This document shows, in pieces, positions 6,024 through 21,762 of a stretch of 64,000 nt of DNA. The notes under the pieces were generated by a model. It did no database searches, was not told the origin of the DNA, and was given only the letters and a program-made list of their open reading frames with translations. This DNA is from an uncultured Clostridia bacterium (GTDB taxonomy: Bacteria > Bacillota > Clostridia > Oscillospirales > Acutalibacteraceae), in assembly GCA_946493765.1 (NCBI GenBank), contig CAMMAZ010000004.1, positions 403 to 64,402 on the forward strand, in the 5' to 3' direction. The number at the start of each line of letters is the position of its first letter. Position 1 is the first letter of the stretch. The position numbers and the translations under genes were made by a program.

Positions 6024-7318
6024 GCCCGCACCTCCATGTCTCCGATTTTATGATCTGAAAATAAACTTAGCTGTTCATATTGCTGCGGCAGCTGCCGGCT
6101 TACATAATCCAGCCCCTGCTGGGAAATCAGGCTGCGCAGCATACCGTCCTGCGTGATGTGCAGCCCGTCGGCCAGTTTGCCGCCCGCGATGATGAAATAC
6201 TGCGCGCGTTTTAAAACAACGCCGATTTTTTTCAGTCCCGCATAGCTTAAGGTTCCGGCCTTGCGGGCGGTGATGATGCGTTTGGCGCTGGTCACGCCGA
6301 TGCCCGGCACCCGCAGCAGCATTTCATAGGGCGCGGTTTGCACCTCGATGGGAAACAGCTCCATGTGATTGAGCGCCCAGTTGCATTTTGGGTCGATCAG
6401 CGGATTGAAATGCGGATGCTCTTCATCCAGCAGCTCTTCGGCTTTGAACCCGTAAAACCGCAGCAGCCAGTCCGCCTGGTATAACCGATGTTCCCGCAAA
6501 AGCGGCGGCGGTGTGTCGGCAGCAGGCAGCAGCGGATTGGTGGACACCGGCATATAAGCGGAAAAGAACACGCGTTTTAACCGGTATTTTTGATACAGCG
6601 CGCTGGACAGATTCAAAATCTGGTAGTCGGTGTCCGGCGTTGCGCCGATGATCATCTGGGTGCTTTGTCCTGCGGGCACGAATTTGGGCGCGTGCTGATA
6701 CTTTATCAGTTCCCGTTTGTTTTCCCGCAATCTGCCGGAGATAAAACCCATCGGTTTTAAAATGGAGGTCTTGGATTTGTCGGGCGCGAGCCGGTTTAAG
6801 CTTTTCTGGCTTGGCAGCTCGATGTTCACGCTCATGCGGTCGGCAAGCATACCGAGCCTTTGCAGCAGCGCCTCATCCGCGCCGGGGATCGCCTTGGCGT
6901 GGATATAACCGAAAAAGCGGTATTCATTCCGCAGGATTTCCAGTGTCTTGATCATCTGTTCGCAGGTGTAATCCGGGTTTTTCATCACGCCGGAACTTAA
7001 AAACAGCCCCTCGATATAATTGCGCCGGTAAAATTCGATCGTTAAATCAGCCAGCTCCCGCGGCGTGAAAGCCGCGCGCGGCAGATCGTTGCTGCGCCGG
7101 TTGACACAGTAGGCGCAATCGTAAACGCAGACGTTGGTTAATAGCACCTTCAAAAGGGAAACACATCGCCCGTCGGCGGAAAAGGTGTGGCAGATCCCGC
7201 ACGCCGCCGCATTGCCGATCCCGTCTTTACCGTTTTTGCGGTCAACACCGCTGGAGGTGCAGGCAACATCGTATTTCGCGCTGTCGGATAGAATTTTCAG
7301 CTTTTCAAACAAATCCAT
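6002..7318 (-). CDS. Putative DNA modification/repair radical SAM protein with C-terminal helix-hairpin-helix
   Basis: CVYDCAYC (CxxxCxxC) cluster. HhH-like LLRVPGIGVTSAKRIITARK. Start taken at MDLFEKLK (7318) rather than the track start at 7357. Confidence 0.85.
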   Translation of the reverse strand: MDLFEKLKILSDSAKYDVACTSSGVDRKNGKDGIGNAAACGICHTFSADGRCVSLLKVLLTNVCVYDCAYCVNRRSNDLPRAAFTPRELADLTIEFYRRNYIEGLFLSSGVMKNPDYTCEQMIKTLEILRNEYRFFGYIHAKAIPGADEALLQRLGMLADRMSVNIELPSQKSLNRLAPDKSKTSILKPMGFISGRLRENKRELIKYQHAPKFVPAGQSTQMIIGATPDTDYQILNLSSALYQKYRLKRVFFSAYMPVSTNPLLPAADTPPPLLREHRLYQADWLLRFYGFKAEELLDEEHPHFNPLIDPKCNWALNHMELFPIEVQTAPYEMLLRVPGIGVTSAKRIITARKAGTLSYAGLKKIGVVLKRAQYFIIAGGKLADGLHITQDGMLRSLISQQGLDYVSRQLPQQYEQLSLFSDHKIGDMEVRACLQAKM

Positions 7319-12513: not shown

Positions 12514-13446
12514 TTATTCATTATTTTCAGCTTGCTTGATTTTTTTCAATTCACTTTCTGCCCATCGGTTTTCTATCTCATATCCCCTTTCGTTATTCCA
12601 AGCTATGATCTCATTTAAAGCTTTCTCCGCTTGTTCAGGCAAGCGATTTTCAATATAATAACAAGCTAATGAATACTGTGAATCAATTAAGTTTTTATCT
12701 AACTGATATGCTCTCTCCCAGCATTTTTTTGCGTTATCATAATCCAATAACTGTTTATATGTGTCTCCTGCATAAGTCAGTAAAATGGCATCGCTTGGAA
12801 ATAAAGCAAGGCCTGTTTCAGCCACTTTTATTGCATTTTTTAAATCCCCTGCATTTTTATATGCGGCTATTAAAGAAGAATAATGCTGGGGATTACCTGG
12901 TTCCTGAAGTATTGCCTTACTGTATTTATCAATACTTTCTTGTGAGCGGCCAAGACGGGAAAGAAACAAAATATATTGCCGTTGATTTTTATAATAAGAT
13001 TGTTCTTTAATCTGGCTGCCTTGTTCAATTGATTTTATATAGTATTCTTCAGCCGCTTTCAAATAATATTGTGCGTGACATTCCAATAGATAAGCATAAT
13101 ATCCTAAATCTTCATCCGTGAAGTTCCCTGATTCAAACAATTTTTTATATTCCCGATCGGCCTGATGAAAGATTTCCATATTATCCATCTCGCTTTCGTA
13201 CAGCGACATTAAGCGTTCAGCTTTATTACGATATGCCCTCATATTCGGCTGAAAAAGATCGTCAATAGTTACACCAAAAGTTTCCGCAATGGTAGGCAGC
13301 AGTGTTATCTCTGGCAAGGTTATACCGGTCTCCCATTTGCTTACAGCCTGAAATGAAATGGAAAGTTTTTCAGCCAACATCTGTTGTGTTATATTTTGTT
13401 CTTCTCTTAATCGTTTTATATTTCTTCCGATTGTCAATGTATTCAT
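12514..13446 (-). CDS. XRE-type HTH plus TPR-repeat transcriptional regulator (RRNPP-like architecture)
   Basis: N-terminal HTH (IGRNIKRLREEQNITQQMLAEKLSISFQAVSKWE) followed by about 240 aa of TPR-like helical repeats. Start at MNTLTIG (13446) follows AAGGAGAG. Confidence 0.8.
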   Translation of the reverse strand: MNTLTIGRNIKRLREEQNITQQMLAEKLSISFQAVSKWETGITLPEITLLPTIAETFGVTIDDLFQPNMRAYRNKAERLMSLYESEMDNMEIFHQADREYKKLFESGNFTDEDLGYYAYLLECHAQYYLKAAEEYYIKSIEQGSQIKEQSYYKNQRQYILFLSRLGRSQESIDKYSKAILQEPGNPQHYSSLIAAYKNAGDLKNAIKVAETGLALFPSDAILLTYAGDTYKQLLDYDNAKKCWERAYQLDKNLIDSQYSLACYYIENRLPEQAEKALNEIIAWNNERGYEIENRWAESELKKIKQAENNE

Positions 13447-13580
13447 AAATAAACTCTCCTTAAATCGATAGTAAACAGCGCTGTTTCTACTTATATTATA
13501 ACGGTGTGACATATCAAATGGCAATAACTATATATTTTAATGAGATTCGCTTAATGTTTGAAATATTTTTATATATAAAT

Positions 13581-13620
13581 TGAAAGAAGCCGACTGTCAT
13601 ACGGCAATCGACTTCTTTCA
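13581..13620 (-). terminator. Hairpin terminator downstream of the 14563-13767 operon
   Basis: tgaaagaagccga / tcgacttctttca stem. Confidence 0.55.
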
Positions 13621-13633
13621 ATAATGTCTAAGC

Positions 13634-13671
13634 CACATGAAAAAGATATTTTCGGCATTTCGGCGGTGGGA
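13634..13671. repeat. 38-nt direct repeat, copy 2
   Basis: cacatgaaaaagatattttcGgcatttcggcggtggga. See copy 1. Confidence 0.85.
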
Positions 13672-13766
13672 GGTGAACGCTCGTAGCCCACAAAAGGATG
13701 ATAGCGACAGCGAACCGGTGAGCTGAGCGTGCCCTTTTAACGAAAGGCTTTGACCCTTACGATGCT

Positions 13767-14219
13767 TTAGTGAAGTATATCATCTTCCAAAACTTTAACA
13801 AGTTTATGCATCATATCCACACGCATGCCCTTTAAAGAAGGAATATGTATAAAAACTGTATTTGGATTTTTCTTGAGCATATGATAATACGCTGCATTGC
13901 ATAAATAATGCGTAGGTTTATCAGATACGGTGTAAAAAATATTTCCGCTTCTAAACCTGTTTTCTAAAGTACGTATATCGAATTTTGTATAGACCATTTC
14001 TTCATTATAATTTGCACAGGTTTCAATTCGGATTTTGTCCACCAAGGTCTTATCAACACCAAACATATACACGATACTATCATCACTGTCAATGAAAGAA
14101 ATATCTTTTTCTATACCTTGGAAGCTATTGGTTAACAAGACATAATTTGCTCCCAATTGATCGACCAACTGAAAAGAAGTATTGTGTATGCCTTTAAAGG
14201 CAGTAAAAAGAGTTTTCAT
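13767..14219 (-). CDS. Miniature pyroglutamyl-peptidase (C15)-like protein
   Basis: 150 aa. Blocks align by eye to Pcp: MKTLFTAF (N-terminal beta strand), RIETCA (Glu), THYLCNAAYYHML (Cys), VFIHIPSL (His). About 65 aa shorter than canonical Pcp. Confidence 0.5.
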   Translation of the reverse strand: MKTLFTAFKGIHNTSFQLVDQLGANYVLLTNSFQGIEKDISFIDSDDSIVYMFGVDKTLVDKIRIETCANYNEEMVYTKFDIRTLENRFRSGNIFYTVSDKPTHYLCNAAYYHMLKKNPNTVFIHIPSLKGMRVDMMHKLVKVLEDDILH

Positions 14220-14563
14220 TTGTTTTCCTTTGCGGTATTTAGGGATGCAATCAGCATTCGTTTGATCTCTTGCGCCAATGATAATAGTTCATCAAAATTA
14301 TAATCCATTAGCTTTGTTCTTTTTAAGAGCGTAAGCCAATAAATGCTTTCGCCTGTTTCTTTCAGTGAAATATGAAGTTTAGATATAAAATCAGCTTTGC
14401 TGTTACCGTAAACGGCTTCGTTTATGTTTGCACCGATACTCGTTGCTGAACGAAGTAATTGTTTTACGATAGTTGTATCTTTTCTTGTTTTAGAAAATTC
14501 CTCATAAAACAAAACGATCTGTGTTGCAAAATCAAGAGATTTATCGAGTAACGGGCTGCTCAT
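14216..14563 (-). CDS. Four-helix-bundle protein (23S rRNA intervening-sequence protein / Avd-like family)
   Basis: Motifs LLRSATSIGANINEAVYGNSKADFISKLHISLKETGESIYWL are typical of the family. Start at MSSPLL (14563) follows AGAGGTGA. The stop overlaps the next start (ATGA). Confidence 0.7.
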   Translation of the reverse strand: MSSPLLDKSLDFATQIVLFYEEFSKTRKDTTIVKQLLRSATSIGANINEAVYGNSKADFISKLHISLKETGESIYWLTLLKRTKLMDYNFDELLSLAQEIKRMLIASLNTAKENK

Positions 14564-14720
14564 CAGTATCACCTCTACACGAATTATACAATAATTCTTT
14601 TTTATAATCAATGCTTTGCGGAGCAAAGCTACCTTTACTTTTATCTCTTCTTTCTTATCTTTTATCTGGAAACGGCAATTTTAGAGAAAAGAGAAAAATA
14701 AAAAGTGAATAGAGAAAAGA

Positions 14721-14767
14721 ACAAAAAGAAACGGCAATCTTCATTCAGAAGATTGCCGTTTCTTTTT
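14721..14767. terminator. Intact 22-nt-arm hairpin abutting the 3' end of tRNA-Val
   Basis: acaaaaagaaacggcaatcttc-attca-gaagattgccgtttcttttt. The last T is shared with the tRNA CCA end. Confidence 0.8.
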
Positions 14768-14843
14768 GGTGGAGACAGAGGGACTTGAACCCACGACCTC
14801 TGCGATGTGAACGCAGCGCGCTAACCAGCTGAGCCATGTCTCC
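14767..14843 (-). tRNA. tRNA-Val (anticodon CAC), CCA encoded
   Basis: Minus strand reads GGAGACA...TGTCTCC-A-CCA. Anticodon stem CTGCG/CGCAG with loop TTCACAT. T arm GTGGG-TTCAAGT-CCCTC. 77 nt. Confidence 0.9.
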
Positions 14844-15245: not shown

Positions 15246-16181
15246 ATGAACCAAGCGGTTATCGATATCGGCTCCAACTCTATGCGGCTGACGGCTTATG
15301 AAACAAACGGGCAGTCGTTTAAAACCTTATTCAAGGAAAAAATCATGGCGGGTCTTGCAGGCTATGTGGAAAACGGCTATTTGAACAGCGACGGCATCCA
15401 GTGCGCCTGCAACGGCCTTTTGGAATTTAAATCGATGCTGGAGGCATTGGGCATCAAAAATGCCGTTGCTTTTGCAACAGCGTCGCTGCGCAATATTAAA
15501 AATACCGATGAGGCGGTAGCGGCGGTCGAAGCGGCGACAGGATTTCCGGTTGAAGTCATCACCGGCGAAAGGGAAGCAATCTACGGCTATGTCGGCGCGA
15601 TGCACGACCTGTCGATGTTAAAGGGCGTTTTTGTGGATATCGGCGGCGCCAGCACCGAGATCGCCGTGTTCGACGATGGCGTCGTGCAAAGGGCGTCCAG
15701 CTTTTGCATCGGGTCTTTAAAACTGTATCGGGAGTGTGTGAAAAATATTTTGCCGGGCAAAGGCTCCATCGAACGTATGCACAAAACCATCCGTGCCGCC
15801 TTTGCAAAAGCGGAATTTCCGAAGGCAAAGCTGCAAATGCCGCTGGCCTGCGTGGGCGGAACCGCACGTGCGGTGTTAAAGCTTGCCGCAAAAGTTTTTG
15901 CGCTCCCGGACAGCTGCCGGAGCGTCACGGCAAAACAGCTGCAGACGCTTTGCGATATGCTGTGCGCGGCGGATAAAACCGCCACTGACTTGATTCTGAA
16001 GCTGGCGCCGGAACGCATCCACACCATGATACCGGGTATTTTGATTTTAAAATATATCGTCGAACAGTTTGGCGCGCCGGAAATCGTCATCAGCAAATAC
16101 GGCGTGCGGGAGGGCTATTTATGTCAAAAGATCTTAAACAAAAAGTCAACGACTATTCCTACACCCAAAACCGGGAACTGA
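15246..16181 (+). CDS. ppx: Ppx/GppA-family exopolyphosphatase
   Basis: AVIDIGSNSMRL and the DIGGASTE actin-like ATPase fold. Adjacent to ppk1. Confidence 0.85.
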   Translation: MNQAVIDIGSNSMRLTAYETNGQSFKTLFKEKIMAGLAGYVENGYLNSDGIQCACNGLLEFKSMLEALGIKNAVAFATASLRNIKNTDEAVAAVEAATGFPVEVITGEREAIYGYVGAMHDLSMLKGVFVDIGGASTEIAVFDDGVVQRASSFCIGSLKLYRECVKNILPGKGSIERMHKTIRAAFAKAEFPKAKLQMPLACVGGTARAVLKLAAKVFALPDSCRSVTAKQLQTLCDMLCAADKTATDLILKLAPERIHTMIPGILILKYIVEQFGAPEIVISKYGVREGYLCQKILNKKSTTIPTPKTGN

Positions 16182-18298
16182 GCTGGCTGAAATTCAATCG
16201 GCGCGTGCTGGAGGAAGCGGCGGACACTTCGGTGCCGCTGCTGGAACGCTTGAAATTCATTTCGATCTTTTCCAGCAATCTCGATGAGTTTTTCATGGTG
16301 CGTGTTGGCAGCCTGTTTGATATTTCGCTGATCTCGCCGGATGAGATCGACAAAAAAAGCGGCATGACCCCGGCAGAGCAGTTAAAAGAGATTTATAACG
16401 TGATCCCCGGTTTGATCGAAATGAAAAAGGAAATTTATGCGGCGGTGCGCGCCGATTTAGAGCAGACGGGTATTATCGATCTTGATTATGCCGCATTAAA
16501 AGAGGAAGAACAAAAATTTATCGGGGCTTATTTCCATTCTAAAATCCTGCCGATGTTATCGCCGCAGATCGTCGGCAGCCATCATCCCGCGCCGCATCTG
16601 GTCAACAAAGCGCTTTACATCGCGGCACTGCTCAAACATAAAAAAGGCAAGCAGTCGTTAGGGTTCATACCGGTTCCCACGGCGCTGCCTTCCTTTATCG
16701 GCCTGCCGTCGTCCGACGGCCGGTTTATCCGACTGGAAAATATCATTCTGCACTGGGCGCCTTTGCTGTTTAGCGGCTATAAGGTAGAAAGTCTTTGCGT
16801 GTTAAGCGTGACCCGCAACGCCGACATCAGCTTTGATAACGATAAATTTGAAGATATTGAAGGGGATTTTCGCACGCGTGTGAGCAAGCTTTTGAAAAAG
16901 CGGGCAAGTTTATCGATCGTGCGGCTGGAAATCAATCATGCCGTTTCCGATGCATTTATGTCGCTTTTAAACACGGTGATCGATGTCAAAGACCATCAGA
17001 TTTATTTCGACGCGTCGCCGCTGAACATGAAATATGTTTTTGAGCTCAAGGATGCGTTTTCCAAAAAATTAACCGCGCCGCTGCTGTTTTCACCTTATCA
17101 TCCCCGCTGGCCGGAGGATTTAAAACAAAATACCAGCATGATCGAACAGATCCGCAAAAAAGACCGGTTGCTGTTTTTCCCTTATGACACGGTGGATCCC
17201 TTTTTGCAGCTGTTGGAAGAGGCGGCGAACCGGCCGGACGTTGTTTCCATTAAAATCACCATCTACCGACTGGCATCCTCCTCTAAAATTGCGCACACAT
17301 TGTGCCGCGCGGCTGAAAACGGCAAAGAAGTCATTGTGCTCATGGAGCTTTTGGCGCGTTTTGATGAACAAAACAACATCACATGGTCGAAATTGCTGGA
17401 AGATGCGGGCTGCCAGGTGATCTATGGGATCGAGGATTTTAAGTGCCACAGCAAGATCTGCCTGATCACCATGCGCGGCAAAGGCGGCCTGCAGTATATC
17501 ACCCAGATCGGCACCGGAAACTACAATGAAAAAACCAACGAAATGTATACCGATTTAAGCCTGATGACCGCATCCGAGACGATCGGCACGGACGGCGCAG
17601 CGTTCTTCCGGAACATGCTGATCGGCAGCTTGGAGGGAGATTACCGGCAGCTGCTGGTCGCGCCGCACGGGATCAAGTCTAAACTGTGCGAGATGATCGA
17701 CCGGCAGATCGAAAAGGGAACACAGGGGTATATCTGCATCAAAGCCAACTCTGTGACCGAACGGGAAGTGATCGATAAATTAAAGGACGCGTCGGTTGCC
17801 GGCGTTGAAATTCAGCTGATTATCCGCGGTATCTGCTGCCTGCGTCCGGGAATCCCGTCCCGAACAGAAAACATACATGTCACCAGCATCGTCGGCCGTT
17901 TTTTGGAGCATGCGCGTATTTATTGCTTTGGGAAAAACGGGGAGGACGGGTTATACATTGCCTCGGCGGATTTAATGACCCGCAATTTGAACCGGCGGGT
18001 CGAGATTGCCTGCCCGGTGTATGATCCGGAAATCAAAGAACAGCTGTTATGGATTTTGTCCACGCAGCTAAAAGATAACGTCAAAGCAAGCTTTCTGCTG
18101 CCCGACGGTTCCTACAGCCGGAAAAGCAATATTCATCCCACGCGTGTCAACAGCCAGGAGGTTTTTATGGAACAGTCGATTCATAAGGAAGAATCGATAG
18201 AAGAGGAATCGCATGAGACTTTGAAAGCACGGCTTGTTCGTGTACGGCAGTGGGTTTCAGCGCTTCCATTTTTGAAAGGACGCAACGGGGAAAAATAG
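16121..18298 (+). CDS. ppk1: Polyphosphate kinase 1
   Basis: N-terminal NRELSWLKFNRRVLEEA, two PLD-like HKD-type regions, 725 aa. Start follows GGGAGGG and overlaps ppx by 61 nt. Confidence 0.95.
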   Translation: MSKDLKQKVNDYSYTQNRELSWLKFNRRVLEEAADTSVPLLERLKFISIFSSNLDEFFMVRVGSLFDISLISPDEIDKKSGMTPAEQLKEIYNVIPGLIEMKKEIYAAVRADLEQTGIIDLDYAALKEEEQKFIGAYFHSKILPMLSPQIVGSHHPAPHLVNKALYIAALLKHKKGKQSLGFIPVPTALPSFIGLPSSDGRFIRLENIILHWAPLLFSGYKVESLCVLSVTRNADISFDNDKFEDIEGDFRTRVSKLLKKRASLSIVRLEINHAVSDAFMSLLNTVIDVKDHQIYFDASPLNMKYVFELKDAFSKKLTAPLLFSPYHPRWPEDLKQNTSMIEQIRKKDRLLFFPYDTVDPFLQLLEEAANRPDVVSIKITIYRLASSSKIAHTLCRAAENGKEVIVLMELLARFDEQNNITWSKLLEDAGCQVIYGIEDFKCHSKICLITMRGKGGLQYITQIGTGNYNEKTNEMYTDLSLMTASETIGTDGAAFFRNMLIGSLEGDYRQLLVAPHGIKSKLCEMIDRQIEKGTQGYICIKANSVTEREVIDKLKDASVAGVEIQLIIRGICCLRPGIPSRTENIHVTSIVGRFLEHARIYCFGKNGEDGLYIASADLMTRNLNRRVEIACPVYDPEIKEQLLWILSTQLKDNVKASFLLPDGSYSRKSNIHPTRVNSQEVFMEQSIHKEESIEEESHETLKARLVRVRQWVSALPFLKGRNGEK

Positions 18299-18333
18299 AT
18301 CCCGTTTTCATATCCACCAACATCCTCAAATGC

Positions 18334-18370
18334 AAAATCTCCGCTGATTCTTAAAATCAGCGGAGATTTT
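18334..18370 (+). terminator. Rho-independent terminator of ppk1
   Basis: aaaatctccgctgatt / aatcagcggagatttt. Confidence 0.8.
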
Positions 18371-18385
18371 GGCGTCTAAAAATGA

Positions 18386-18434
18386 TTTTCACCAAAGCCC
18401 CATCACATGCTGCATGAGCAGGCTCACACCGGTG
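18386..18434. repeat. 49-bp direct repeat, orphan copy of the yeiH-like gene 3' end
   Basis: ttttcaccaaagccccatcacatgctgcatgagcaggctcacaccGgtg matches 20727-20775 with one mismatch. No ORF continues upstream of it. Confidence 0.9.
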
Positions 18435-18730
18435 TGGTTCTAGGTTGCCATCAAGCTTTTTCACAGATATTGACCCTTTCGGAAAGGTTGGCATTGCGAA
18501 GAGGATCGATTTGGCTGTAGGGGAACAGACCGGACAAAAATAAATCTGCCCCTGTGAATGTGAAATACTTTAATGTTTTTCCCGTGCGACGAACCCGGCG
18601 ATTTGATGCGAGAACCGCTAAAAAAACGGGACGCCTGCAACGATGATCAGCAAAATAGCACGATCGGCTATCGTTTTTAATGTGAGATCGGGTCTGCTGT
18701 TTTCTTCGCTTTCATGTTTTCTCTCCTTTA

Positions 18731-20161
18731 TCAATAAGCATACTGCAAGGCATAAGTGCGCAGATTCGGATGTTCTTGCAGAATCTGGTACCCAATAAAT
18801 TGATCACTTTCATCAAAAACCATCAGCATGGTGAGAATGTCTGCATCTTCATCAACAGTAAATCGTGAATCAGGGCTTTGCGAAATGTCGCCTTTGATTT
18901 TTATAATATAGGAGGTCGACAGATAATCCCCGTATTCGCTGTTTTCCAGTTCATCCTGTTTCTTCACATTCAAAACAGACAAATCGAAATAATCGCGATA
19001 AGCCTCATATTCGCCTTCGTATCCCGGCGCGCAGAGGGTCAATAACAGCCCCAGGTCGATGGAATTTGCTGAACCGTTGAAGTGATAGCGAATGCCATCA
19101 AACGCATCGTTGATAACGGATTTTGGCACTTCATGGAAGTAAGGGGAAAATGCTTTGGAGTTAATGGTAATACTAATAAATTTACCGTCACCCATTGGCA
19201 TGACCGTAAGATCTACTTCTAAGGTTTGATTTTCAAGAACAAAGTATTCGTGTCCTTCATATAGACTGACGCTATCTGTTTTTTCCGGTGTTTTTACATC
19301 AAGGGCAGTTGCATAATAATCCAGCAGGTATTCATAACAAGCTTCGTCTGAGGTAATCGTAATATCCATCTCAAATAATTGATCGGTTTGATTAAAATAG
19401 TAGGAGACAGGGTTAGAGCCTTCGATGGCGAGCTGGTCATTTTGATAGAAGGCTTTAACGTCTTCCGCGGACCAGAAGGCGGAATTGGAATAGCGTTTGT
19501 TTGCTTTGTCCTCTTGCTTTGTTCCGACCAGATCGACGCTTTTTTGAACGGTTTCGTAAGTGTCGCCCATTTGCAGGTCATAAGGCAGCACCGGGTGATT
19601 GAGCCTCACAATTTCCTTGTAGAGAAAGAACCCACCGGTGACCGCTGCGCCAAGAAGCACAACAACTGCACAAACAAGCAACAGCCGCTTGACAGGAAAT
19701 TTTTTTCGAGCGCGTTTCACAACAGTCTCGAAAAATGTTTTTGTTTGTTCGCTTAATAAATCGTCCGCACGGGAAATGGTTGAACGGGAAATCAGCGATT
19801 CCCGCGCAATTTCTTCCGGCAGACTTTCAGCCGCGCCGACCCGAAAAAATTCGCAGGCGCAGTATTGACCAATATCCTGCCGGTTCCATTCCTCGTCTTG
19901 TGTGGAAACGGCAGAGGCTGTGATCCGGCAAAGGTAATATTCTTGGGTGTTTGGATCCCGCACCCACACAAGATCCCCCGCTTCAAATTCGGAAAGCGCG
20001 TTTTGGGCGCGGGCGAAAGCGGCATTATCCGGTTCCTGATCCACCCAGCCGATTCCCACGATTTTGTGTTCCAGACAAAACTGAAATTTGGATTTTGTGA
20101 GATCCGACGGTTTGTTCGCTTCGTCTCGATTGTCCTTCAAGTTCATAAGCCACACATTCAT
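18731..20161 (-). CDS. Single-pass membrane protein of unknown function
   Basis: 476 aa with a strong RBS (AGAGGAGAA-7-ATG). One TM helix (LLLVCAVVVLLGAAVTGGFFLY). A cytosolic N-terminal domain of about 150 aa begins NVWLMNLKDN and contains GDLVWVRD...YYLCRI. The outside domain of about 290 aa is rich in Tyr, Asp and Glu. I recognise no catalytic motif. Confidence 0.75.
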   Translation of the reverse strand: MNVWLMNLKDNRDEANKPSDLTKSKFQFCLEHKIVGIGWVDQEPDNAAFARAQNALSEFEAGDLVWVRDPNTQEYYLCRITASAVSTQDEEWNRQDIGQYCACEFFRVGAAESLPEEIARESLISRSTISRADDLLSEQTKTFFETVVKRARKKFPVKRLLLVCAVVVLLGAAVTGGFFLYKEIVRLNHPVLPYDLQMGDTYETVQKSVDLVGTKQEDKANKRYSNSAFWSAEDVKAFYQNDQLAIEGSNPVSYYFNQTDQLFEMDITITSDEACYEYLLDYYATALDVKTPEKTDSVSLYEGHEYFVLENQTLEVDLTVMPMGDGKFISITINSKAFSPYFHEVPKSVINDAFDGIRYHFNGSANSIDLGLLLTLCAPGYEGEYEAYRDYFDLSVLNVKKQDELENSEYGDYLSTSYIIKIKGDISQSPDSRFTVDEDADILTMLMVFDESDQFIGYQILQEHPNLRTYALQYAY

Positions 20162-20222
20162 TTTTCAATTCTCCTCTTTTTTTCATTTTGCCGTGGGTGT
20201 GTTCATGGTTGATATATTGCTG

Positions 20223-20239
20223 CAATATACCAAAATGGG
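20223..20239. promoter_or_regulatory. Perfect 8-1-8 palindrome TATATTGC-T-GCAATATA in the divergent promoter region (operator candidate)
   Basis: Lies between the divergent 476-aa gene and the XRE gene, next to -10-like gataat/tataat motifs. Confidence 0.45.
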
Positions 20240-20287
20240 ATATTTTAATTATACCATTATGGGATAATATTGTCAAGAGGTGTGTGG

Positions 20288-20494
20288 ATGAGATTGAAAT
20301 TTTTAAGAAAACAAAAAGGCATTTCACAGCTAAAATTGGCAATGGATCTGGGTATGAATCAAAATAGTATCAGCCGGTACGAGAACGGCGAGCGAGAGGC
20401 GGATTATAAAACTTTGATCGCTTTTGCCGACTATTTTAACGTGTCGATCGATTATTTGCTGGAACGGACGGATAACCCCAGCGTCAATCGCTGA
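20288..20494 (+). CDS. Small XRE-family HTH regulator (68 aa)
   Basis: LRKQKGISQLKLAMDLGMNQNSISRYENGERE. ATG at 20288 follows GAGGTG. Confidence 0.85.
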   Translation: MRLKFLRKQKGISQLKLAMDLGMNQNSISRYENGEREADYKTLIAFADYFNVSIDYLLERTDNPSVNR

Positions 20495-20611
20495 GCTTTT
20501 TATGTTTTGTTTTGCATTTCCCGAATGAAAACCGGTGAAACGATTGTTTCGATGGAGAAAAAGCGGCCGTCAAACAGCAATGTTTCAATTGTTTTCAAAT
20601 GTTTAAATTAA

Positions 20612-20656
20612 AAAAATAACAAGGGCAGCCACATGGGTTGTCCCTGTTATTTTTTT
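20612..20656 (+). terminator. Rho-independent terminator after the XRE gene
   Basis: aataacaagggcagcc...ggttgtccctgttatt followed by T7. Confidence 0.65.
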
Positions 20657-20726
20657 GATGATCTGACCGATAATCCTTCTGCTAAGCATAAAACACTTTT
20701 AAAACAGCAAAAATTAAAAGGAAGCT

Positions 20727-20775
20727 GTTTTCACCAAAGCCCCATCACATGCTGCATGAGCAGGCTCACACCAGT
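20727..20775. repeat. 49-bp direct repeat, functional copy (last 15 codons plus stop of the yeiH-like gene)
   Basis: See 18386-18434. Confidence 0.9.
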
Positions 20776-21762
20776 GATGCCCGCCCAACAGCAGAGCCCC
20801 ATCAAAATCGGTTTGCCGCCGGTTTTGACCAGTTTGACGATGTTGGTGTTCAGTCCGATGGCAGCCATTGCAACCACAATGAAAAACTTGCTCAGTTCTT
20901 TGAGCGGCTCAAAAAAGCTTTCCGGTAAGCCAAACTGGACGGCAATTGTGGTAACGATCGACGCCGCGACAAACCAAAGGATAAAAAACGGAAATATCTT
21001 TCGCAGCTGCACCTTACCGCCGGCATTCTCTTTTTTACCGCGAAGCCGGAAAAACGCAAGCACGAGGGTAATGGGGATAATGGCAAGCGTTCTGGTGAGC
21101 TTGACCGTCACGGCTTTGTCGAGCGTTGCCGAACCGAGCTTCCACATGCTGTCCCAGGTCGACGCAGCGGCGGTCACGGAAGAGGTATCGTTGATAGCGG
21201 TCCCTGCAAAAATGCCGAATGCATCGCCGCTTGCGGTGTCAAATCCGATTGCGCTGCCAAGCAGCGGGAAAATAACTGCTGCGATGACATTGAAAAAGAA
21301 AATCACGCTGATCGCCTGTGCAATTTCATCGTCGTCCGCATCGATCACCGGTGCGGTCGCGGCAATCGCAGAACCACCGCAAATTGAGGAGCCAACGCCG
21401 ACCAAAACAGAAATTTTCCCAGGGATGTGCATCGCTTTGTGCAATAAAAAGGCGATCAGCAGCGAAATGGATATCGTGCAGAGGATAATCGGCAGCGATT
21501 GTTTTCCGGTCTGCAAAATCACATTCAGATTCATGCCGAATCCCAATAAAACGACCGCAGCCTGCAACACTTTTTTAGAGGAAAATTGGATGCCCGCTAC
21601 AAAGTCCGATTTGTCTTTGATAAACAGCGTGACAATCATCCCGGCGATAATGGCGATGACCGCGCCGCCGACAACTGGAACCGCTTTCCCGATCAGCCAG
21701 GCCGGAACGGCAATCAGCAGACATAACAGCAGCCCCTTCACATTTTTTTGAATCCACTTCAT
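20731..21762 (-). CDS. YeiH/UPF0324-family (putative sulfate exporter family) membrane protein
   Basis: 343 aa and polytopic. Family-typical FAGTAINDTSSV and GGKPILMG segments. Confidence 0.75.
   Translation of the reverse strand: MKWIQKNVKGLLLCLLIAVPAWLIGKAVPVVGGAVIAIIAGMIVTLFIKDKSDFVAGIQFSSKKVLQAAVVLLGFGMNLNVILQTGKQSLPIILCTISISLLIAFLLHKAMHIPGKISVLVGVGSSICGGSAIAATAPVIDADDDEIAQAISVIFFFNVIAAVIFPLLGSAIGFDTASGDAFGIFAGTAINDTSSVTAAASTWDSMWKLGSATLDKAVTVKLTRTLAIIPITLVLAFFRLRGKKENAGGKVQLRKIFPFFILWFVAASIVTTIAVQFGLPESFFEPLKELSKFFIVVAMAAIGLNTNIVKLVKTGGKPILMGLCCWAGITGVSLLMQHVMGLW

What the first reader, a model, noticed from the sequence alone, without database searches (positions are those of the whole stretch)
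18386..20775. 2.3-kb islet bracketed by a 49-bp duplication of the yeiH-like gene 3' end, with no recombinase inside
- Seen directly: 18386-18434 and 20727-20775 are direct repeats, with 48 of 49 positions identical.
- The right copy is the true last 15 codons plus stop of the 20731-21762 gene. The left copy is an orphan sitting just after the ppk1 terminator.
- That is the footprint of site-specific integration into a gene's 3' end, where the incoming element regenerates the end.
- The 2292 bp between the copies look more AT-rich than the flanks. They encode only a 476-aa membrane protein, a small XRE regulator and some non-coding DNA (18435-18730).
- A two-gene cargo with att-like ends and no integrase suggests a decayed element or a cassette mobilised in trans. 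That is the context in which small defence or exclusion modules are often found.
Basis: partly seen in the sequence, partly recalled or inferred. Interest (0 to 1): 0.7.

Follow-up and report, generated by a model that had tools for sequence, protein, structure and literature searches.

The report
Fixed gene islet inside yeiH end
A 2.3-kb two-gene insert (a repressor and the membrane protein it controls) sits in the tail of the yeiH transporter gene between two copies of that tail; it looks like an old, now immobile insertion, and its uncharacterised cargo protein is the more interesting part.

Summary
The repeat is real: 18386-18434 and 20728-20776 match at 48 of 49 positions, with none expected by chance. 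The right copy ends the intact yeiH. The left copy is an orphan 14 nt from a strong two-way terminator shared with ppk1, as an original yeiH end would be.

The insert holds a 68-aa XRE repressor, a consensus promoter with two operator-like palindromes, a 476-aa single-pass membrane protein, a decayed ORF stub and its own terminator. There is no recombinase, recombinase remnant or terminal inverted repeat.

Every junction recovered from four other samples of this species is of the filled type. No empty site exists in public data. A diverged lineage (L081) carries the same two-copy block with host flanks outside the repeats. Module copies at other loci have no flanking repeats, and the yeiH end is not a recurrent target in 72-80 other species.

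The integration-footprint reading is therefore plausible. The idea of a cassette mobilised in trans is not supported.

The cargo's cytoplasmic domain has an EVE/YTH-like fold and matches only the N-terminal half of the untested PADLOC candidate PDC-S02. Its outer domain evolves fast. Moderate interest.

The parts
18333..18371 (.). Two-way intrinsic terminator hairpin. It ends ppk1 and was probably the original terminator of yeiH; it now also ends the cargo transcript.
   Evidence: A 17-bp perfect inverted repeat. It folds at -27.6 and -29 kcal/mol on the two strands, z -8.8 and -8.2. It is conserved next to the orphan copy in L081.
18386..18434 (-). Orphan (left) copy of the yeiH 3' end: 3 nt, the stop codon and the last 43 coding nt.
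   Evidence: 48 of 49 identical to 20728-20776. No ORF reads into it, because stops lie upstream in frame. It is 82% identical to the L081 orphan, against 62-66% for neighbouring non-coding DNA.
18435..18730 (-). Decayed stretch. It holds the remnant of a small membrane-anchor-like ORF (about 18541-18714, frameshifted at a T run) and a 98-nt segment (18443-18540) that L081 lacks.
   Evidence: Alignment with L081 gives 62% identity with stops or no start codon in both genomes. No Pfam match in six frames, no Rfam match and no other copy in the window.
18731..20161 (-). Cargo gene, 476 aa. It encodes a cytoplasmic EVE/YTH-like domain (aa 1-150), one membrane helix (about aa 165-187) and a variable two-lobed outer domain.
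   Evidence: - No Pfam or NCBIfam match.
- PADLOC PDC-S02 matches aa 1-149 only (E 7.5e-21).
- AlphaFold models have pLDDT 84 and 88.6.
- Foldseek hits are VcaM4I, YTH and EVE domains.
- Strain-to-strain changes are confined to aa 195-317.
20225..20276 (-). Cargo promoter with two operator-like palindromes. The -35 is at 20271-20276 and the extended -10 ends at 20248. O1 is 20250-20266 and O2 is 20225-20243.
   Evidence: The promoter matches the consensus at 12 of 12 positions with TG before the -10. Promoter and palindromes are conserved in five modules whose cargos are only 36-67% identical.
20288..20494 (+). XRE-family repressor gene, 68 aa, divergent from the cargo gene.
   Evidence: - PF01381 HTH_3, E 2.8e-17; best NCBIfam match is the phage RstR-type repressor.
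- 90-93% identical protein in L081, L083 and L091.
- Identical protein on six contigs.
20607..20659 (.). Second two-way terminator, brought in by the insert. It now ends both the XRE gene and yeiH.
   Evidence: Inverted repeat I3. It folds at -27.7 and -18.1 kcal/mol on the two strands and is conserved in L081.
20728..20776 (-). Functional (right) copy of the repeat: the true end of yeiH.
   Evidence: In frame with the 343-aa YeiH ORF. One synonymous site, repeat position 46, varies between strains.
20731..21762 (-). yeiH-family transporter gene, the target of the insertion. It is intact.
   Evidence: PF03601, E 2.9e-75; TIGR00698-like.
16121..18298 (+). ppk1, the left flank. It converges on the orphan copy.
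   Evidence: All four polyphosphate kinase domains are present. The same ppk1-hairpin-repeat junction appears in L104.

Best explanation
**What it is.** This is the fixed relic of one old insertion into the last 43 coding bases of yeiH. Most likely a circular DNA carrying a look-alike of the yeiH end recombined with the chromosomal yeiH end (a Campbell-type single crossover).

**What the insertion did.**
- yeiH stayed intact and gained a new terminator at 20607-20659.
- The original end was stranded as a 49-nt orphan in front of the old two-way terminator shared with ppk1.
- Whatever recombinase did the job is gone. A decayed, truncated ORF stub abutting the orphan copy marks later loss of DNA.
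- The insert is now inherited as ordinary chromosome.

**Why the copies stay alike.** The two copies are probably kept nearly identical by gene conversion from the selected yeiH copy.

**What remains.** A self-contained module remains. A 68-aa XRE repressor probably binds two palindromes over a consensus promoter and holds down a 476-aa single-pass membrane protein. That protein has a cytoplasmic EVE/YTH-like domain, the fold that reads modified bases, and a fast-evolving outer domain.

**Proposed function (inferred, not shown).** An inducible envelope protein involved in phage exclusion or defence.

**Shown:** the anatomy, conservation, fold and lack of mobility signals. **Inferred:** the crossover mechanism, the gene conversion, repression by XRE and the function.
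For: **The insertion**
- The repeat is far beyond chance.
- The orphan lies 14 nt from a strong two-way terminator that also serves ppk1. The insert supplies a second one.
- The XRE-cargo pair is accessory and is found in at least four genomic contexts.
- Islet GC3 is 0.47-0.51, against 0.62-0.63 in the flanking genes.

**Loss of mobility**
- There is no recombinase, recombinase remnant or terminal inverted repeat.
- A frameshifted ORF stub next to the orphan is decayed in L081 as well.
- The arrangement is filled at every junction recovered from four other samples of the species.
- The same block is present in a lineage about 26% diverged.

**Gene conversion**
- Non-coding DNA around the repeats is only 62-66% identical between the two lineages. 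Yet the window's copies differ at 1 of 49 positions. The Poisson probability of at most one difference is 0.005-0.04 for 10-15% divergence; the divergence seen here implies a higher rate and so a smaller probability.
- The orphan copies are 82% alike between the two lineages.
- The single mismatch is a synonymous site that still varies between strains.

**The module**
- The promoter matches consensus at 12 of 12 positions, and the palindromes are conserved across five modules.
- The cargo models are confident (pLDDT 84 and 88.6), and the N-terminal domain hits VcaM4I, YTH and EVE folds at probability 0.98-1.0.
- PDC-S02 matches the N-terminal domain at E 7.5e-21.
- Between two strains, 12 amino-acid changes and an indel all fall in aa 195-317. 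The N-terminal domain has five silent changes only (my own Fisher test on these counts gives p about 0.002).
Against: - No empty site and no excised form has been seen, so 'insertion' rests on anatomy alone.
- No integrase is present or traceable.
- The yeiH end is not a recurrent target in 72-80 other species.
- Module copies elsewhere lack flanking repeats. The repeat may therefore be an accident of this one event rather than an attachment site.
- In L081 the shared block runs about 210 nt into yeiH beyond the repeat and includes the outer hairpin. That fits block transfer or plain vertical descent as well as integration does.
- Near-identity of the copies could instead mean a recent insertion.
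- The functions of the cargo and of PDC-S02 are untested. The fold match is moderate (TM about 0.5) and no Pfam EVE or YTH model matches.
Confidence: 0.45

Rival explanations
1. The insert arrived without any site-specific recombinase. DNA from a relative that already had the module downstream of yeiH entered by transformation or transduction. One end was anchored by ordinary homologous recombination in yeiH. The other end joined illegitimately inside the recipient's own yeiH tail. The recipient's last 49 nt were left as a by-product, and the repeat never served as an attachment site.
For: - There is no recombinase or remnant.
- Other module copies have no flanking repeats.
- The yeiH end is not a recurrent target.
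- L081 carries the block with host DNA outside both repeats, about 210 nt of yeiH and the hairpin. This shows that such blocks do move or persist with their flanks.
- A 356-nt XRE-promoter segment is 100% identical in a 64%-GC genome, suggesting recent recombination-based spread.
Against: - The join keeps the reading frame and leaves a clean duplication ending 3 nt after the stop. That is tidier than most illegitimate joins.
- L081 shares the same inner junction (TAGAAC next to the repeat). So this would have to be a single event that was later inherited or transferred.
- No donor arrangement, meaning the module downstream of an unduplicated yeiH, has been found.
Confidence: 0.25
2. The insert is a live cassette mobilised in trans. 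A recombinase encoded elsewhere in the genome, or by a helper element, excises and integrates the two-gene unit at the 49-bp repeats.
For: - The repeats are almost perfect, which an active system would need.
- The module occurs in several contexts.
- An identical XRE-promoter unit occurs in an unrelated genome.
Against: - Every recovered junction is filled.
- The contig that looks circular (L101) breaks exactly at k-1 = 30 nt into the repeat and at the single mismatch, as a k=31 assembly graph would.
- Copies at other loci lack repeats.
- L081 keeps both copies plus outside flanks, with its repeats decayed to 81%.
- No yeiH-tail duplication was found in 80 species.
- The promoter-operator DNA motif has no exact match in the viral contig collection.
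Confidence: 0.07
3. The feature is a prophage remnant. The XRE is the phage repressor and the membrane protein is a superinfection-exclusion gene of a lysogeny module. The rest of the phage, with its integrase, has been deleted.
For: - The XRE's best matches are phage repressor families: PHROG 8 at E 5e-26 and the NCBIfam RstR type.
- Full-length PDC-S02 relatives sit on phage DNA, next to a tape-measure gene in L088 and next to an integrase-like ORF in a Clostridioides phage-plasmid.
- A truncated ORF stub shows that DNA was lost.
Against: - None of the module's contexts contains phage structural or replication genes.
- The cargo has no significant PHROG match; the only hit is E 0.068 over 37 aa.
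- Viral collections give only one distant N-terminal-domain hit each.
- Repressor and cargo are divergent, unlike the usual integrase-exclusion-repressor order (the usual order is from my own knowledge).
Confidence: 0.12
4. The repeat is an artefact of metagenome assembly or a chance match.
For: The window probably comes from a metagenome-assembled contig. Repeats close to k-mer length can arise from graph errors.
Against: - Zero matches were expected by chance.
- The copies differ at one base.
- Both junctions were recovered independently from four other samples and two assemblers.
- A diverged lineage has the same layout.
Confidence: 0.01

Closest known systems
Defective prophage e14 and phage 21 integrated in the 3' end of icd in E. 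coli (from my own knowledge)
   Same: Both insert into the 3' end of a protein-coding gene. The incoming DNA supplies a replacement end, so the gene stays intact. The displaced original end is left as an orphan direct repeat on the far side.
   Different: Those elements carry their integrase and many phage genes, and strains with empty sites are known. Here there is no recombinase, only two genes, no empty site, and no sign that yeiH is a recurrent target.
PADLOC candidate defence system PDC-S02
   Same: The first 149 residues of the cargo match the first 159 positions of the 299-position profile at E 7.5e-21. Full-length members occur on phage DNA.
   Different: The C-terminal half of the profile is absent. 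I read that half as nuclease-like from its sequence only. In the cargo it is replaced by a membrane helix and a 290-aa outer domain. PDC-S02 itself is only a computational candidate; the papers found merely count it.
EVE and YTH modified-base reader domains (PUA-like fold), for example the EVE-HNH restriction enzyme VcaM4I
   Same: The domain model (pLDDT 88.6) hits VcaM4I (E 3e-4), YTHDC2, Pho92 and MRB1 YTH domains, and the EVE proteins 1zce and 2gbs. Probabilities are 0.98-1.0 and TM-scores about 0.5.
   Different: There is no sequence-level match to any Pfam model. The TM-score is only moderate and the binding pocket was not examined. No known member that I am aware of is anchored to the membrane with a large outer domain.
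Metis defence system (bioRxiv 10.1101/2025.11.05.686725)
   Same: In type I, a PUA-like domain senses a modified nucleotide (m6dAMP) and switches on an effector. Type II uses a membrane effector.
   Different: The module has no MisB phosphatase partner. MisC has three membrane helices and no large outer domain. The cargo here has one helix and is paired with an XRE repressor. This is an analogy of principle only.
XRE or C-protein control of toxic or defence genes (restriction-modification control proteins, CapH-type regulators)
   Same: A small HTH_3 protein is encoded divergently from the gene it appears to control, with palindromic operators over a strong promoter. PADLOC control-protein, CapH and RmrA models hit the XRE.
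   Different: Binding and repression were not tested. The controlled gene is a membrane protein of unknown action.

Membership tests
Site-specific integrative element (prophage, ICE or IME relic) | Flanking direct repeats, one of which completes the target gene | tested here: met
   49-nt repeat, 48 of 49 identical. The right copy ends yeiH in frame.
Site-specific integrative element (prophage, ICE or IME relic) | Tyrosine or serine recombinase gene, or its remnant, inside the element | tested here: not met
   The only ORFs are the XRE and the cargo. No Pfam match in six frames of 18380-18740.
Site-specific integrative element (prophage, ICE or IME relic) | Empty target site in related genomes | tested here: inconclusive
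   Every same-species junction recovered is filled. The next YeiH relative is 81% identical and none of 80 yeiH loci has ppk1 nearby. The nearest ppk1 relative lacks yeiH.
Site-specific integrative element (prophage, ICE or IME relic) | Same target used repeatedly by related elements | tested here: not met
   No duplication of the yeiH tail within 8 kb in 80 loci. No integrase family is among the 25 most frequent families listed for 113 downstream ORFs from 72 loci, so one in a single locus is not excluded. Other module copies lack repeats.
Site-specific integrative element (prophage, ICE or IME relic) | Excised circular form | not testable with these tools
   Raw reads are needed. The ends of contig L101 are explained by a k=31 graph break.
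Transposon, insertion sequence or MITE | Terminal inverted repeats and a short target-site duplication | tested here: not met
   No inverted repeat pairs the islet ends. A 49-nt duplication is far longer than any transposon target duplication I know of.
PADLOC PDC-S02 | Match over the whole 299-position profile, including the C-terminal half | tested here: not met
   Only profile positions 1-159 match (E 7.5e-21). L088 matches positions 1-295 at E 2e-83.
EVE/YTH (PUA-like) reader domain | Fold similarity to solved EVE and YTH domains | tested here: met
   Foldseek probability 0.98-1.0, TM about 0.5, E down to 3e-4.
EVE/YTH (PUA-like) reader domain | Sequence match to the Pfam EVE or YTH models | tested here: not met
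   No such match even at E up to 10.
EVE/YTH (PUA-like) reader domain | Aromatic pocket that binds a modified base | not tested
   W4, W39, W66 and Y76 are invariant in the alignment. Their positions in the model were not examined.
XRE (HTH_3) transcription regulators | HTH_3 domain | tested here: met
   PF01381, E 2.8e-17, above the cut-off.
YeiH family (PF03601 / TIGR00698) | Full-length match to the family model | tested here: met
   PF03601, E 2.9e-75, residues 9-321. The TIGR00698 score is below NCBI's cut-off (140 against 232).
Metis defence system | MisB HAD phosphatase partner, with MisA metallophosphatase or three-helix MisC | tested here: not met
   The only neighbour is the XRE. The cargo has one hydrophobic helix.

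The most novel reading that the evidence does not exclude
The XRE-controlled membrane protein may be a new kind of single-gene phage-exclusion or defence device. A cytoplasmic EVE/YTH-like reader of modified nucleic acid or nucleotides would be tethered to the membrane and coupled to a rapidly diversifying outer domain.

Its XRE-promoter-leader unit may be a portable expression cassette that is re-joined to different surface-protein genes exactly at the start codon. L099 shows this: 356 nt are 100% identical, set inside a 64%-GC genome.
Probability: 0.2. Interest if true: 0.65.

Novelty: new variant of a known kind. Interest (0 to 1): 0.4.

Why it matters
- **A caution for genome scans.** A textbook attachment-site footprint, a gene end duplicated around foreign DNA, can persist as a fixed chromosomal feature long after mobility is lost. 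Its repeats can be kept near-perfect by gene conversion, so perfect repeats alone are weak evidence of an active element.
- **A new lead.** The scan turned up a rare protein architecture. Only 179 domain representatives were found among 1.84 billion clusters. The reader domain of a candidate restriction-like defence protein is re-used on a membrane anchor with a fast-evolving outer domain, under a very conserved repressor and promoter.
- **If the cargo is a defence or exclusion protein,** it would extend modified-base sensing to the cell envelope.

Tried and rejected
- **Empty site.** I searched through YeiH (80 genome loci and a protein search), ppk1 (protein search and nearest relative) and exact look-ups of the XRE and ppk1. 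None was found.
- **Exact look-ups.** Look-ups of the window's own cargo and YeiH sequences found nothing on record.
- **Circular form.** Contig L101 (2360 nt) has repeat sequence at both ends. I rejected it as a circle. Its ends fall at repeat positions 16 and 30, exactly as a k=31 graph would break given the mismatch at position 46. The ppk1 contig from the same sample stops at the same base.
- **Integrase remnant in 18435-18730.** No Pfam match in any frame.
- **Known RNA covering the orphan copy.** Nothing near threshold in Rfam.
- **Real small gene downstream of the cargo.** Rejected, because the ORF is frameshifted here and lacks a start in L081.
- **Second yeiH paralogue as the source of the orphan.** Rejected. 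There is no other yeiH similarity in 18435-18740.
- **Phage or plasmid carriage of the cargo.** Only one distant N-terminal-domain hit in each viral set and none in plasmids. The promoter motif is absent from viral contigs.
- **Toxin-antitoxin reading of XRE plus cargo.** Considered unlikely because the genes are divergent rather than co-transcribed (inference).
- **Structure and sequence searches.** The viral structure library gave only uncharacterised proteins and lipoproteins. The PDB sequence search for the PDC-S02 relative found nothing useful.
Full report
**1. The observation**

The window holds a 49-nt direct repeat at 18386-18434 and 20728-20776, identical at 48 of 49 positions and spaced 2342 nt apart. 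A 45-nt core allowing three mismatches occurs exactly twice in the 64 kb and never in 100 shuffles.

The right copy is 3 nt past the stop, the stop codon (20731-20733) and the last 43 coding bases of a 343-aa YeiH-family gene (PF03601, E 2.9e-75). The left copy has stop codons upstream in frame and belongs to no ORF.

The left copy lies 14 nt from a 17-bp perfect hairpin at 18333-18371. This hairpin folds strongly on both strands (-27.6 and -29 kcal/mol, z about -8 to -9) and follows ppk1, which ends at 18298. That is the position expected for the original end of yeiH when yeiH and ppk1 converged on one two-way terminator.

The 2293 bp between the copies are moderately AT-rich. GC is 43.1% against a window mean of 47.3% (sd 4.2). 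GC3 is 0.47-0.51 against 0.62-0.63 in ppk1 and yeiH.

**2. What lies between the copies**

Reading leftwards from yeiH, the insert contains:
- a second two-way terminator at 20607-20659;
- a 68-aa XRE repressor gene at 20288-20494 (HTH_3, E 2.8e-17);
- a promoter on the minus strand that matches the sigma-70 consensus at 12 of 12 positions with an extended -10 (20276-20248);
- the 476-aa cargo gene at 18731-20161;
- 296 nt without an intact gene.

The promoter region carries two palindromes of the form ATCCCAT-N-ATGGTAT, at 20250-20266 and 20225-20243. Promoter and palindromes are conserved almost base for base in five modules whose cargo proteins are only 36-67% identical. The simplest reading is that the XRE represses the cargo promoter. 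This is an inference.

The 296-nt stretch holds the remnant of a short ORF with a hydrophobic segment. It is frameshifted at a T run in the window and lacks a start codon in L081. It also holds a 98-nt piece that L081 lacks. This stretch has no Pfam match in any frame, no Rfam match and no other copy in the window. There is no recombinase, no remnant of one, and no terminal inverted repeat.

**3. Is it an insertion, and is it mobile?**

The XRE-cargo pair is clearly accessory. Close homologues sit in several contexts:
- between queT and a GH31 gene (L083, L084, L086);
- in a third context (L091);
- with a more distant XRE elsewhere (L087, L090).

None of those copies has flanking direct repeats.

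For the window's own species I recovered contigs from four other samples:
- L085 (also returned as L100), L102 and L103 cover the yeiH-XRE junction.
- L101 covers the interior of the insert.
- L104 covers ppk1, the hairpin and the start of the repeat.

All are of the filled type. L101 has repeat sequence at both ends. Its ends and the end of L104 fall exactly 30 nt into the repeat, or 30 nt from the single mismatch. This is what a k=31 assembly graph produces, so it is not evidence of a circle.

No empty site can be found. YeiH relatives fall from 99% to 81% identity. None of 80 yeiH loci from other species has ppk1 nearby. The nearest ppk1 relative, at 75% identity, has no yeiH beside it.

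The yeiH tail is not a general target. None of the 80 loci has a second copy of its yeiH tail within 8 kb. No integrase family appears among the 25 most frequent Pfam families listed for 113 ORFs downstream of yeiH in 72 loci. An integrase in a single locus is therefore not excluded.

**4. The diverged twin, L081**

A contig from another lineage (cargo 67% identical, DNA about 74%) has the same layout:
- a yeiH tail;
- the terminator, the XRE and the cargo;
- the decayed stub;
- a second yeiH-tail copy (a 62-nt repeat, 81% identical);
- a hairpin homologous to the window's ppk1/yeiH terminator.

In L081, however, yeiH is only a decayed fragment of roughly 250-360 nt lying next to a tRNA-Leu gene, and ppk1 is absent. 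The shared block therefore extends outside both repeats. It was inherited or transferred as a block, not excised at the repeats.

Non-coding DNA in the block is only 62-66% identical between the two lineages. If the duplication predates their split, a neutrally drifting orphan should differ from the functional copy at several positions. The Poisson probability of at most one difference is 0.005-0.04 at 10-15% divergence. The divergence observed here implies a higher rate and so a smaller probability.

Instead the window's copies differ at one synonymous site. That site still varies between strains: G in L085, and a single mismatch to the orphan, taken to be the window's A, in L102 and L103. 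The orphan copies are 82% alike between lineages, and both L081 copies share synonymous states that the window lacks.

Gene conversion from the selected yeiH copy explains this best. A recent, independent insertion in each lineage is the alternative and cannot be excluded.

**5. The cargo**

The protein has no Pfam, NCBIfam or useful PHROG match. Its first 149 residues match the first 159 of 299 positions of the PADLOC candidate PDC-S02 (E 7.5e-21).

Full-length PDC-S02 relatives are about 300 aa. I read their C-terminal half as nuclease-like from sequence alone. They occur on phage DNA:
- L088, next to a tape-measure gene (E 2e-83);
- a Clostridioides phage-plasmid, next to an integrase-like ORF.

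PDC-S02 appears in the literature only as a counted candidate.

The N-terminal domain is rare, with 179 representatives at E up to 0.001 among 1.84 billion clusters. Going by protein length in that list, it occurs in three forms: alone (about 150 aa), in proteins of about 300 aa, and in proteins of 350-650 aa. I equate the last two with the nuclease-like and membrane-anchored forms, but this was checked only for the few aligned members.

AlphaFold models are confident, with pLDDT 84 for the whole protein and 88.6 for the domain. The domain's best structural matches are the EVE-HNH restriction enzyme VcaM4I, several YTH domains and two EVE proteins (probability 0.98-1.0, TM about 0.5, E down to 3e-4).

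A basic stretch followed by a 22-residue hydrophobic helix puts this domain in the cytoplasm and the remaining 290 residues outside (sequence; model). The outer part weakly resembles small envelope domains of the TiME, DUF4309 and LpqN kind.

Across homologues the membrane-proximal outer segment is the least conserved. Identity to the three closest homologues over aa 191-340 is 35-58%, against 63-84% for the N-terminal domain. Between two strains of the same species, all 12 amino-acid changes and a 2-aa indel fall in aa 195-317. The N-terminal domain has five silent changes only (my own Fisher test on these counts gives p about 0.002). That pattern suits a surface-exposed part under diversifying pressure.

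**6. An unexpected relative, L099**

The XRE protein is found, identical, on six contigs. On one of them (L099) a 356-nt stretch is 100% identical to the window (20164-20519), covering the XRE gene, promoter, operators and leader. From the start codon onwards, however, it is joined to a quite different gene. That gene encodes a 493-aa secreted protein with Cu_amine_oxidN1 and PepSY domains.

The surrounding DNA is 64% GC, against 38% for the shared stretch. This is either a very recent transfer of the regulatory unit between unrelated bacteria with a swap of cargo at the start codon, or an assembly chimera.

**7. Interpretation**

The anatomy fits a single crossover between a circular DNA and the yeiH tail, followed by loss of whatever recombinase and other genes came with it. 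The classic parallel, from my own knowledge, is e14 and phage 21 in the icd gene of E. coli.

A recombinase-free route explains the missing integrase and the lack of repeats at other loci about as well. In that route one end recombines homologously and the other joins illegitimately. I rank it second. An element still mobilised in trans has no support.

I put 0.45 on the relic-of-integration reading, 0.25 on the recombinase-free route, 0.12 on the more specific prophage-remnant version and 0.07 on an active cassette.

For function, the best guess is an inducible envelope protein acting in phage exclusion or defence. Its cytoplasmic reader domain would bind modified nucleic acid or nucleotides. 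The Metis system shows that a PUA-like domain can sense a modified nucleotide and trigger an effector. This module fails the Metis membership tests, however, and none of this has been tested for the cargo.

**8. Verdict**

The islet itself is an ordinary kind of feature in an unusual state: fixed, without a recombinase, and with its repeats kept alike. The cargo is a new architectural variant within a barely studied domain family. Interest is moderate, at 0.4.

Noticed in passing
L099:2934-3289 (equivalent to window 20164-20519): The XRE gene, promoter, operators and leader are 100% identical over 356 nt to the window. From the start codon onwards they are joined to a different gene, a 493-aa secreted protein with Cu_amine_oxidN1 and PepSY domains, in 64%-GC DNA. 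This is either a recent transfer with a cargo swap at the ATG or a chimeric contig.
   Followed up: partly
window 12514-14843: A low-GC patch (33% GC over 13767-14626) lies next to tRNA-Val (14767-14843). It holds a 23S-rRNA-intervening-sequence-family protein, a 150-aa protein of unknown function and a 336-aa HTH plus TPR regulator of the RstR type. It may be a second small islet just upstream of ppx and ppk1. A similar HTH protein lies downstream of the module in L081.
   Followed up: partly
L081:7087-7447: In the diverged lineage, yeiH is reduced to a decayed 3' fragment with a frameshift and stops, directly after tRNA-Leu(TAG) at 6951-7034. The transporter was lost there while the insert was kept.
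   Followed up: yes
window 20733-20776 and L085, L102, L103: The single mismatch between the repeat copies (position 46, ACC or ACT, both threonine) still varies between strains in the functional copy. In L085 that site matches the orphan copy.
   Followed up: yes
L088:7986-8939 and L105:3001-3912: Full-length PDC-S02-type proteins (about 300 aa) occur on phage DNA. One is next to a tape-measure gene on a high-GC viral contig. Another is next to an integrase-like ORF on Clostridioides phage-plasmid pCD1602_4.
   Followed up: partly
window 15246-16181 and 16121-18298: The ppx and ppk1 ORFs overlap by 61 nt as listed. The same overlap is called in L104 and a shorter one (28 nt) in L089. The true ppk1 start may lie further downstream.
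   Followed up: no
window 18443-18540: A 98-nt segment beside the orphan copy is absent from L081. It has no other copy in the window and no known function.
   Followed up: partly
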